A stretch of 64,000 nucleotides of DNA. Source: Escherichia coli. Lineage in GTDB: Bacteria; Pseudomonadota; Gammaproteobacteria; Enterobacterales; Enterobacteriaceae. The translations under genes and the position numbers were made by a program. Position 1 is the stretch's first letter, and the number at the start of each line of letters is the position of its first letter. Location of the stretch: the NCBI RefSeq assembly GCF_002854065.1, contig NZ_CP024147.1; one strand, written 5' to 3'. This document shows positions 28,909 through 28,926 of the stretch, one piece after another. The notes under the pieces were generated by a model. It saw only the letters and a program-made list of their open reading frames with translations. It had not been told where the DNA came from and searched no databases.

Positions 28909-28926
28909 CGGAAAACGTTTGCGTTT
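28909..28926. promoter_or_regulatory. Candidate PurR operator upstream of pyrD
   Basis: GAAAACGTTTGCGT matches the PurR-box palindrome (reverse complement of ACGCAAACGTTTTC). Confidence 0.5.

What the first reader, a model, noticed from the sequence alone, without database searches (positions are those of the whole stretch)
28909..28926. PurR-box-like palindrome immediately after ycbF and upstream of pyrD
GAAAACGTTTGCGT matches the PurR operator consensus and starts 9 bp after the ycbF stop, about 85 bp before the pyrD start. The pyrD control region thus directly abuts the fimbrial operon 3' end with no obvious terminator between them, so fimbrial read-through could run into pyrD.
Basis: partly seen in the sequence, partly recalled or inferred. 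Interest (0 to 1): 0.25.

Follow-up and report, generated by a model that had tools for sequence, protein, structure and literature searches.

The report
Known PurR operator upstream of pyrD
The flagged sequence is the already published binding site through which the purine repressor PurR mildly turns down the pyrimidine gene pyrD in E. coli, so it is ordinary; the idea that fimbrial transcription reads through it into pyrD has not been tested.

Summary
CGGAAAACGTTTGCGT lies at window 28909-28924, starting 9 nt after the ycbF stop (28898-28900) and ending 86 nt before the pyrD ATG (29011). The window is E. coli, and its ycbF-pyrD spacer is identical to K-12's. The 16-mer is letter for letter the PurR motif that Cho et al. 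2011 (PMC3159470, Table 1) list for pyrD under a ChIP-chip peak seen only with adenine. They count it among sites already characterised in vitro and by mutation.

A matrix built from the 27 other ChIP sites scores it 20.7 bits, the best site in the 64 kb. A site of at least 13 bits sits 100-113 nt before the ATG in all 84 pyrD upstream regions compared, mostly one per Enterobacteriaceae species, whatever lies upstream.

The T8 run and the block around -35 keep a fixed position relative to the promoter, so they belong to pyrD and not to ycbF.

No canonical terminator follows ycbF. The box plus T-run gives only a weak hairpin (about -4.5 kcal/mol, 2 G-C pairs). Read-through is possible but undocumented. 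Such transcripts would carry the full PyrD-leader hairpin, the poorly translated form.

Side results:
- The elf-ycb island ends exactly at the left edge of the box.
- 25% of E. coli genomes lack the island and carry a weaker box allele.
- An IS2 splits elfC in this window.

Verdict: already known, low interest.

The parts
28163..28900 (+). ycbF, the fimbrial chaperone and last gene of the elfADCG-ycbUVF operon; stop TGA at 28898-28900
   Evidence: ORF list. RefSeq annotation of the identical stretch in O157:H7 SS52.
28901..28910 (.). Right-hand junction of the elf-ycb fimbrial island. Homology to E. coli genomes without the island begins at 28911.
   Evidence: About 1,360 of 5,425 E. coli genomes match the query only from position 312, which is window 28911. 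In L082 ssuE is the divergent neighbour of pyrD. The left junction is near window 20491.
28909..28924 (.). PurR operator (PUR box) of pyrD, CGGAAAACGTTTGCGT, with the central CpG at 28916-28917. Its centre is about -62.5 to -64.5 from the pyrD start sites.
   Evidence: Identical to the motif listed for pyrD in MG1655 (1,003,889-1,003,904) under a ChIP-chip peak (PMC3159470 Table 1). Scores 20.7 bits on a leave-one-out matrix. The core G.AAACG.TTGC is invariant in 12 species, and a site is present in 84 of 84 pyrD upstream regions.
28925..28932 (+). T8 run between the box and the -35 region. Its position is fixed relative to the promoter. It is probably an A/T-tract (UP-like) promoter element (inferred), and it also forms the 3' arm and tail of a weak hairpin with the box.
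   Evidence: TTTnTTG is invariant in alignment A1 and at least 90% conserved at most positions in 84 sequences. In the 50 sequences with 10 extra bp, the insertion lies between the box and the T-run. The hairpin is -4.3 to -4.7 kcal/mol.
28938..28951 (+). Conserved block GGTCAATTCCCTTT covering the weak -35 region (TTCCCT at 28944-28949, 17 bp before the -10)
   Evidence: 12 of its 14 positions are invariant in alignment A1 and the other two are at least 90% conserved; conserved at 80-90% or more in 84 sequences. The -35 assignment is my reading from the spacing. The consensus promoter scan found nothing here.
28967..28972 (+). pyrD -10 hexamer CATAAT
   Evidence: Invariant across species. [quoted passage not shown]
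28978..28981 (+). pyrD start-site cluster: C starts at 28978/28979 and a G start at 28981. The choice is set by the CTP/GTP ratio.
   Evidence: Positions inferred from the sequence together with the description in PMC6524683. Not mapped here.
28943..29016 (+). PyrD leader (Rfam RF02373), with hairpin CCCGGU 28978-28983 / ACCGGG 28990-28995 and Shine-Dalgarno AGGAG at 29001-29005
   Evidence: cmscan 97.9 bits against a gathering score of 47. The same hairpin is the MFE structure.
29011..30021 (+). pyrD, quinone-dependent dihydroorotate dehydrogenase
   Evidence: ORF list. RefSeq annotation.
30054..30085 (+). Hairpin CAGGGC...GCCCTG followed by GTTGTTTTAT; the likely pyrD terminator, shown for contrast with the ycbF end
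   Evidence: Sequence. The scan reports the hairpin with 7 pairs, 5 of them G-C.

Best explanation
Window 28909-28924 is the known PurR operator of the pyrD promoter. When purines are plentiful, the PurR dimer loaded with hypoxanthine or guanine binds this 16-bp box and lowers pyrD transcription modestly. This ties pyrimidine synthesis to purine supply.

The box is centred about 63 bp upstream of the start sites. That places it upstream of the -35 region, not over the promoter as at most pur genes.

The probable mechanism is inferred, not shown: interference with upstream RNA polymerase contacts at the adjacent conserved T-tract, or face-of-helix-dependent bending of the DNA.

This control acts on top of the separate, known PyrD-leader mechanism. 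There the CTP/GTP ratio selects the start site, which decides whether a 5' hairpin forms that hinders ribosome binding.

The box abuts ycbF because the elf-ycb fimbrial island was inserted flush against it, into what was originally a divergent ssuE-pyrD spacer. No terminator came with the island.
For: Shown:
- The window is E. coli with the gene order ssu / elfADCG-ycbUVF / pyrD / zapC.
- The ycbF-pyrD spacer is identical to K-12's.
- The 16-mer equals the published PurR motif for pyrD under a ChIP-chip peak. The peak was seen with adenine only (log2 enrichment 1.01). The paper counts the site among those already characterised in vitro and by mutation (PMC3159470).
- PMC6245113 describes PurR repression of pyrC and pyrD as much lower than at pur genes.
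- Leave-one-out matrix score 20.7 bits, the best in the window, reached in 3 of 200 simulations.
- The core G.AAACG.TTGC is invariant in 12 species.
- A site of at least 13 bits lies 100-113 nt before the ATG in 84 of 84 pyrD upstream regions. Only 5 of the 80 species loci have ycbF upstream, and about 69 of the 80 have a divergent ssuE 227-356 bp away.
- The spacing falls in two classes 10 bp apart, which is one helical turn: 34 sequences at 100-102 nt and 50 at 110-113 nt.
- PyrD_leader RF02373 is found at 28943-29016. The start-site mechanism is described in PMC6524683.

Inferred:
- The position of -63, from the -10 hexamer and the published start-site rule.
- The mechanism of repression from that position.
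Against: - I could not read the primary footprint and genetics paper (Wilson and Turnbough 1990, PMC209126). The in vitro evidence is therefore second-hand, through Cho et al. and reviews.
- The ChIP signal at pyrD is among the weakest in the table and is absent without adenine.
- The published evidence is for K-12. Occupancy in the O157/O55-type strain of this window is assumed from sequence identity.
- How a repressor centred at -63 lowers initiation is not established. The T-tract matches the UP-element consensus only in part.
Confidence: 0.93

Rival explanations
1. Dual use: the box and its T8 run (AAAACG-UUUG-CGUUUU + UUUU) act in the RNA as a weak intrinsic terminator that ends the fimbrial operon and partly insulates pyrD.
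For: - The hairpin is the MFE structure of the local RNA and is followed by U residues.
- All 5 loci with ycbF upstream have an uninterrupted T7-T8 run directly after the box.
- Nothing else resembling a terminator follows ycbF.
Against: - The stem has only 2 G-C pairs at -4.3 to -4.7 kcal/mol, no better than shuffles (z -0.58).
- Forming the stem uses up 4-6 of the 8 U's, so the remaining tail runs into GCCG.
- The same box plus T-run occurs in six loci (five Kluyvera and one unclassified Enterobacteriaceae) whose upstream neighbour is the divergent ssuE.
- The T-run keeps its distance to -35, not to the box, in the 50 sequences with the 10-bp insertion.
- No + strand 3' end is listed here in Adams et al. 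2021. This is weak evidence, because the operon is silent in K-12.
Confidence: 0.1
2. Roadblock: PurR bound at the box physically stops RNA polymerase arriving from ycbF, as PurR does inside purB. Read-through into pyrD would then be blocked only when purines are abundant.
For: - PurR acts by blocking elongation at purB and purR (PMC3159470 citing He and Zalkin 1992).
- The box lies directly in the path of any ycbF read-through, and no strong terminator precedes it.
Against: - There is no experimental evidence at this site.
- ChIP occupancy is weak.
- The box is conserved in about 75 species loci with no co-directional gene upstream, so a roadblock cannot be why the box exists.
- The elf operon is cryptic and H-NS-silenced in K-12.
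Confidence: 0.08
3. Chance resemblance, or a site used mainly by another LacI-family repressor with a similar CG-centred half-site, and not a working PurR operator.
For: - A simple count of up to 3 mismatches to the perfect palindrome is expected 0.53 times per window by chance.
- LacI-family operators resemble one another (my own knowledge).
Against: - The matrix score is 9 bits above any other distinct site in the window.
- The site is conserved in 84 of 84 pyrD upstream regions at a fixed distance.
- There is a published ChIP peak and earlier genetics.
Confidence: 0.02

Closest known systems
PurR operator of E. coli K-12 pyrD (Wilson and Turnbough 1990; Cho et al. 2011, PMC3159470)
   Same: The 16-mer is identical, and so is the whole spacer from the ycbF stop to the pyrD ATG. 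This is the same element in another strain.
   Different: Nothing in the element itself differs. Only the strain background differs: an O157/O55-type sequence with an IS2 in elfC upstream.
PurR boxes of the pur regulon (purF, purT, purHD and others)
   Same: The same 16-bp CG-centred motif ACGNAAACGTTTGCNT. The pyrD site differs from the purF site AAGAAAACGTTTGCGT only at its first two bases.
   Different: Those sites generally lie between -35 and -10 and repress strongly. The pyrD box lies upstream of -35, at about -63, and its repression is described as much lower.
PurR box of carAB P1
   Same: A pyrimidine-pathway promoter with a PUR box in an unusual upstream position and modest purine repression (PMC6245113).
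   Different: The carAB box is centred at -128.5 and works within a large PepA/IHF nucleoprotein complex. At pyrD the box is at about -63 and no partner protein is known.
PurR roadblock at purB
   Same: PurR bound to a box in the path of an elongating polymerase. The same geometry would apply to transcripts coming from ycbF.
   Different: At purB the box lies inside the transcribed region of the regulated gene. Here it is upstream of the regulated promoter, and a roadblock role is only conjecture.
PyrD leader (Rfam RF02373) and the analogous pyrC leader
   Same: It is the adjacent, independent control layer of the same gene and is present here at full score.
   Different: It is an RNA and start-site mechanism sensing CTP/GTP, not a protein operator. 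It begins 19 nt downstream of the box.

Membership tests
PurR operator (PUR box) of the enterobacterial PurR regulon | 16-bp imperfect palindrome matching ACGNAAACGTTTGCNT | tested here: met
   14 of 16 to the degenerate consensus and 13 of 16 to the perfect palindrome. The leave-one-out matrix gives 20.7 bits, within the 12.0-24.7 range of 27 ChIP-supported sites.
PurR operator (PUR box) of the enterobacterial PurR regulon | Central CpG step flanked by AAA/TTT | tested here: met
   AAAACGTTT with C28916-G28917. These columns are invariant in 12 species.
PurR operator (PUR box) of the enterobacterial PurR regulon | Lies in the control region of a nucleotide-metabolism gene | tested here: met
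   The box ends 86 nt upstream of the pyrD ATG, at about -63 from the start sites. A site is present at 100-113 nt before the ATG in 84 of 84 pyrD upstream regions.
PurR operator (PUR box) of the enterobacterial PurR regulon | Occupied by PurR in vivo or in vitro, dependent on corepressor | tested here: met
   Tested by literature look-up, not by experiment here. A ChIP-chip peak at 1,003,618-1,004,017 in MG1655 appears with adenine only, and its motif is identical to the window's. The spacer is identical to K-12's. The primary footprint paper could not be read.
PurR operator (PUR box) of the enterobacterial PurR regulon | The target gene responds to purR deletion or purine addition | not testable with these tools
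   Cho et al. list pyrD among pyrimidine genes affected by purR deletion and directly repressed. PMC6245113 calls the repression low. No fold value for this strain is available.
Intrinsic (Rho-independent) terminator | Stable G+C-rich stem-loop | tested here: not met
   The stem has 2 G-C pairs at -4.3 to -4.7 kcal/mol, z -0.58 against shuffles. It is not reported by the terminator scan, which needs at least 3 G-C pairs.
Intrinsic (Rho-independent) terminator | U-tract immediately 3' of the stem | tested here: inconclusive
   A T8 run is present at 28925-28932, but 4-6 of these bases are needed for the stem. That leaves UUUU or UU followed by GCCG.
Intrinsic (Rho-independent) terminator | Mapped RNA 3' end at the U-tract | tested here: inconclusive
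   No + strand 3' end is listed at the ycbF-pyrD spacer in the supplements of Adams 2021, TERMITe or SMRT-Cappable-seq. The operon is silent in K-12 and stored files may be truncated, so absence says little.
PyrD leader (Rfam RF02373) | Match to the covariance model above the gathering score, with the 6-bp 5' hairpin | tested here: met
   97.9 bits against a gathering score of 47, full length 1-74, at 28943-29016. It is a neighbour of the box and does not overlap it.
UP element (alpha-CTD binding A/T tract at -59 to -38) | A/T-rich tract at a fixed position upstream of -35 that matches the UP consensus and stimulates transcription | tested here: inconclusive
   The T8 run at about -55 to -48 is conserved and keeps its distance to -35. 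It matches only the T-rich part of the consensus as I recall it, and stimulation cannot be tested here.

The most novel reading that the evidence does not exclude
The fimbrial island and the pyrD operator may be evolutionarily and functionally coupled. The elf-ycb island ends exactly at the left edge of the box. Strains with the island carry a stronger box allele plus an uninterrupted T-run (CGGAAAACGTTTGCGT-T8, 20.7 bits). The 25% of E. coli without the island carry AAGAAAACGTTTGCTA-TTTATT (14.6 bits).

The differences cluster in the roughly 10 nt just right of the core, while the next 80 nt are identical. This suggests that the island arrived by recombination together with a donor's box and T-run.

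If so, purine control of pyrD would differ between E. coli lineages. The stronger box, with its weak hairpin and T-run, could also have been kept because it shields pyrD from fimbrial read-through, as a roadblock or a weak terminator.
Probability: 0.12. Interest if true: 0.35.

Novelty: already known. Interest (0 to 1): 0.08.

Why it matters
The PurR box of pyrD is textbook regulon content, so confirming it adds nothing beyond correct annotation of this window.

The modest value lies in three context points:
- They explain why a biosynthetic promoter abuts a fimbrial operon with no terminator: the island was inserted into a formerly divergent ssuE-pyrD spacer.
- E. coli lineages carry two operator alleles of different predicted strength.
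- Across Enterobacteriaceae the operator sits at either of two distances one helical turn apart. That hints at a face-of-helix-dependent way of repressing from upstream of -35.

None of these would surprise a specialist much.

Tried and rejected
- **Mismatch search.** A search with the perfect palindrome gave a chance-level result. I replaced it with a matrix built from published sites, which is discriminating.
- **Consensus scans.** They found no sigma-70-like promoter and no + strand terminator in 28300-29300. The pyrD promoter has a weak -35, so I located it from the conserved -10 and the literature.
- **Primary and review papers.** Wilson and Turnbough 1990 (PMC209126), Turnbough and Switzer 2008 (PMC2415746) and Thomason 2015 (PMC4288677) are not held. 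Fold repression, footprint limits and mapped start sites therefore come from secondary sources or inference.
- **Transcript 3' ends and joint transcripts.** Adams 2021 lists only a minus-strand (antisense) 3' end in ycbF and nothing at K-12 (U00096.3) 1,004,5xx-1,004,7xx. Dar and Sorek 2018 and the 3'-UTR valve paper have no supplements held. The TERMITe and SMRT-Cappable-seq supplements mention neither gene. No paper contains both 'ycbF' and 'pyrD'.
- **SlyA overproduction study.** It raises elfADCG-ycbUVF 2.7-fold and never mentions pyrD. This argues weakly against a large read-through effect. It is uninformative, because pyrD's own promoter would mask it.
- **T8 run as a ycbF-specific terminator tail.** Rejected. 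The tract is conserved where ssuE is the divergent neighbour, and it keeps its distance to -35 and not to the box.
- **Other RNA families in the spacer.** Only PyrD_leader passes. RmaA and SNORA57 are sub-threshold noise.

Full report
**What is in the sequence.** Window 28909-28926 reads CGGAAAACGTTTGCGTTT, and the quoted GAAAACGTTTGCGT is at 28911-28924. The upstream ORF, 28163-28900, ends with TGA at 28898-28900. The downstream ORF begins with ATG at 29011 and encodes [11 protein letters not shown].... Megablast places the stretch in E. coli. It is 100% identical to O157:H7 and O55:H7 chromosomes and 98.7% identical to K-12, and the genes are annotated as ycbF (fimbrial chaperone) and pyrD. 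The local gene order is ssuEADCB (opposite strand), elfADCG-ycbUVF, pyrD, zapC.

**Is it more than chance?** Counted against the perfect palindrome ACGCAAACGTTTGCGT, the site has 3 mismatches. One such match per 64 kb is what chance gives (0.53 expected). That test is crude. I built a matrix from the 27 other PurR motifs in Table 1 of Cho et al. 2011, leaving pyrD out. The site scores 20.7 bits. The next distinct site in the window scores 11.1 bits. Only 3 of 200 first-order Markov simulations of the window reach 20.7 bits, and the training sites span 12.0-24.7 bits.

**Identification.** Cho et al. 2011 (PMC3159470) list for the transcription unit pyrD a PurR ChIP-chip region at 1,003,618-1,004,017 in MG1655. 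Its motif, at 1,003,889-1,003,904, is CGGAAAACGTTTGCGT, the same 16 letters.
- The peak appeared only with exogenous adenine (log2 enrichment 1.01), which makes it one of the weaker sites.
- The authors count pyrD among the binding regions already characterised by in vitro binding and mutational analysis. They cite Wilson and Turnbough 1990 and Choi and Zalkin 1990.
- Another reference list cites dual purine and pyrimidine control of Salmonella pyrD (Vial et al. 1993).
- A review describes PurR repression of pyrC and pyrD as much lower than at the pur genes (PMC6245113).
- The whole spacer from the ycbF stop to the pyrD ATG is identical between the window and a K-12 derivative, so the K-12 evidence transfers directly.
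- I could not read the 1990 primary papers.

**Anatomy of the control region.** The order downstream of the box is as follows.
- A T8 run at 28925-28932.
- A conserved block GGTCAATTCCCTTT at 28938-28951.
- The -10 hexamer CATAAT at 28967-28972.
- A run of C's followed by GG at 28976-28982.
- A 6-bp hairpin, CCCGGU at 28978-28983 paired with ACCGGG at 28990-28995.
- The Shine-Dalgarno AGGAG at 29001-29005, then the ATG.

Rfam's PyrD_leader model (RF02373) matches 28943-29016 at 97.9 bits against a gathering score of 47, with exactly that hairpin. According to PMC6524683, pyrC and pyrD transcripts start with C, 6-7 nt after the Pribnow box, when CTP/GTP is high. The two extra C's allow a 5' hairpin that hinders ribosome binding. 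When CTP/GTP is low, transcription starts at the G. Applied here, the starts are C28978/C28979 and G28981. The box centre (28916.5) is then at about -62.5 to -64.5, upstream of the -35 region. This position is my inference from the sequence and that rule. It contrasts with the usual PurR position between -35 and -10.

**Comparative evidence.** A genome scan with PyrD returned 80 loci, one per species of Enterobacteriaceae.
- Together with the window and three E. coli loci, all 84 upstream regions contain a site of at least 13 bits (median 20) lying 100-113 nt before the ATG. In a 12-species alignment the core G.AAACG.TTGC is invariant.
- Only 5 of the 80 species loci (one Escherichia and three Pseudocitrobacter species loci, plus the O157 reference locus L001) have a ycbF homologue upstream.
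- About 69 of the 80 species loci have ssuE as a divergent neighbour 227-356 bp away.

The box, the T-rich tract (TTTnTTG invariant), the -35 block, the -10 and the leader are therefore parts of the pyrD promoter, whatever lies upstream.

The box-to-ATG distances fall into two classes, 100-102 nt (34 sequences) and 110-113 nt (50 sequences). The extra 10 bp lie between the box and the T-run. So the T-run keeps its place relative to -35, while the box moves by one helical turn. This pattern fits a repressor that must sit on one face of the DNA, next to an A/T-tract promoter element. That mechanism is inferred, not shown.

**Why the box abuts ycbF.** About a quarter of complete E. coli genomes match the query only from position 312, which is window 28911. 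In one of them (L082) the whole elf-ycb operon is absent, and ssuE lies 236 bp from pyrD. This island-less junction is present in 1,353 of 5,426 genomes. Comparison with the window puts the left junction near 20491. The island therefore occupies about 20492-28910 and replaces roughly 70 bp of the original spacer.

The island ends flush with the left edge of the box, so the first two bases of the 16-mer are island DNA. Island-less E. coli carry AAGAAAACGTTTGCTA followed by TTTATTGCC. That allele scores 14.6 bits against 20.7 bits. The same allele is found in E. albertii, E. whittamii and several Citrobacter. The differences between the two alleles cluster in the roughly 10 nt right of the core, while the next 80 nt to the ATG are identical. 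This suggests that the island arrived by recombination together with a donor-type box and T-run. That is an inference.

**The terminator and read-through question.**
- No + strand terminator-like site lies between ycbF and pyrD.
- The box and T-run can pair as GGAAAACG-UUUG-CGUUUUUU. The stem has only 2 G-C pairs, a free energy of -4.3 to -4.7 kcal/mol and z = -0.58 against shuffles. Forming it uses up most of the U's, so the remaining tail runs into GCCG.
- By contrast, pyrD is followed by a 7-bp stem with 5 G-C pairs and a T-rich tail at 30054-30085.
- I found no mapped 3' end or joint transcript in the accessible datasets.
- The elf operon is cryptic and part of the H-NS regulon in K-12. 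It rose 2.7-fold on SlyA overproduction in a study that never mentions pyrD (PMC5797941). The absence of evidence therefore says little.

Three points limit the likely impact of read-through.
- The operon is normally silent.
- In this window an IS2 (about 22589-23919, with a 5-bp duplication CCATC) splits the usher gene elfC.
- Any transcript arriving from upstream would contain the complete leader hairpin, which is the poorly translated form. That point is an inference.

PurR bound at the box could also act as a roadblock, as it does at purB. Nothing tests this.

**Verdict.** The feature is the published PurR operator of pyrD, so it is already known. It is explained by the history of the locus: an island inserted into a formerly divergent spacer. 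Read-through into pyrD is possible but undocumented and probably of little consequence. Interest is low. The residual curiosities are the two operator alleles linked to presence or absence of the island and the one-turn spacing dimorphism.

Noticed in passing
window 22589-23919 (insC 22634-23044, insD 23002-23907, + strand): An IS2 element is inserted in the fimbrial usher gene elfC, with a 5-bp target duplication CCATC. It splits elfC into 22123-22590 and 23882-26059. None of 5,426 complete E. coli genomes shows this junction in one aligned piece. Three have an IS in elfC at other positions.
   Followed up: partly
window about 20492-28910; L082 5864-6099: The whole elfADCG-ycbUVF operon is a presence/absence island. 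1,353 of 5,426 E. coli genomes lack it and have ssuE and pyrD as divergent neighbours 236 bp apart. The island replaces about 70 bp of that spacer, and its right end is flush with the PurR box.
   Followed up: yes
window 28909-28932 compared with L082 5999-6021: There are two operator alleles in E. coli. Island-bearing strains have CGGAAAACGTTTGCGT plus T8 (20.7 bits). Island-less strains have AAGAAAACGTTTGCTA plus TTTATT (14.6 bits). Minor variants also occur, with T7 (L086) or GCGC plus T7 (L085, L002).
   Followed up: partly
L002-L081, 100-113 nt upstream of the pyrD ATG: Across Enterobacteriaceae the PurR box sits at one of two distances from pyrD, differing by 10 bp (34 and 50 sequences). 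The extra turn is inserted between the box and the conserved T-run.
   Followed up: partly
K-12 (U00096.3) 1,004,029, minus strand, inside ycbF (about window 28272 by my coordinate conversion): A supplementary table of Adams et al. 2021 lists a 3' end antisense to ycbF. I did not work out which transcript it belongs to.
   Followed up: no
window 26050-27120 compared with L001 6450-7520: elfG is an intact 356-aa ORF in the window, but it is annotated as a pseudogene (internal stop) in O157:H7 SS52. ycbF is annotated as frameshifted in two other genomes, L084 and L085.
   Followed up: no
L009 2801-3000 (Salmonella enterica subsp. arizonae): Upstream of the Salmonella pyrD box lies unrelated DNA with a strong hairpin plus T-run (GCCCGG...CCGGGCATTTTTTT). 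It looks like a proper terminator or REP-like element, unlike the E. coli arrangement.
   Followed up: no
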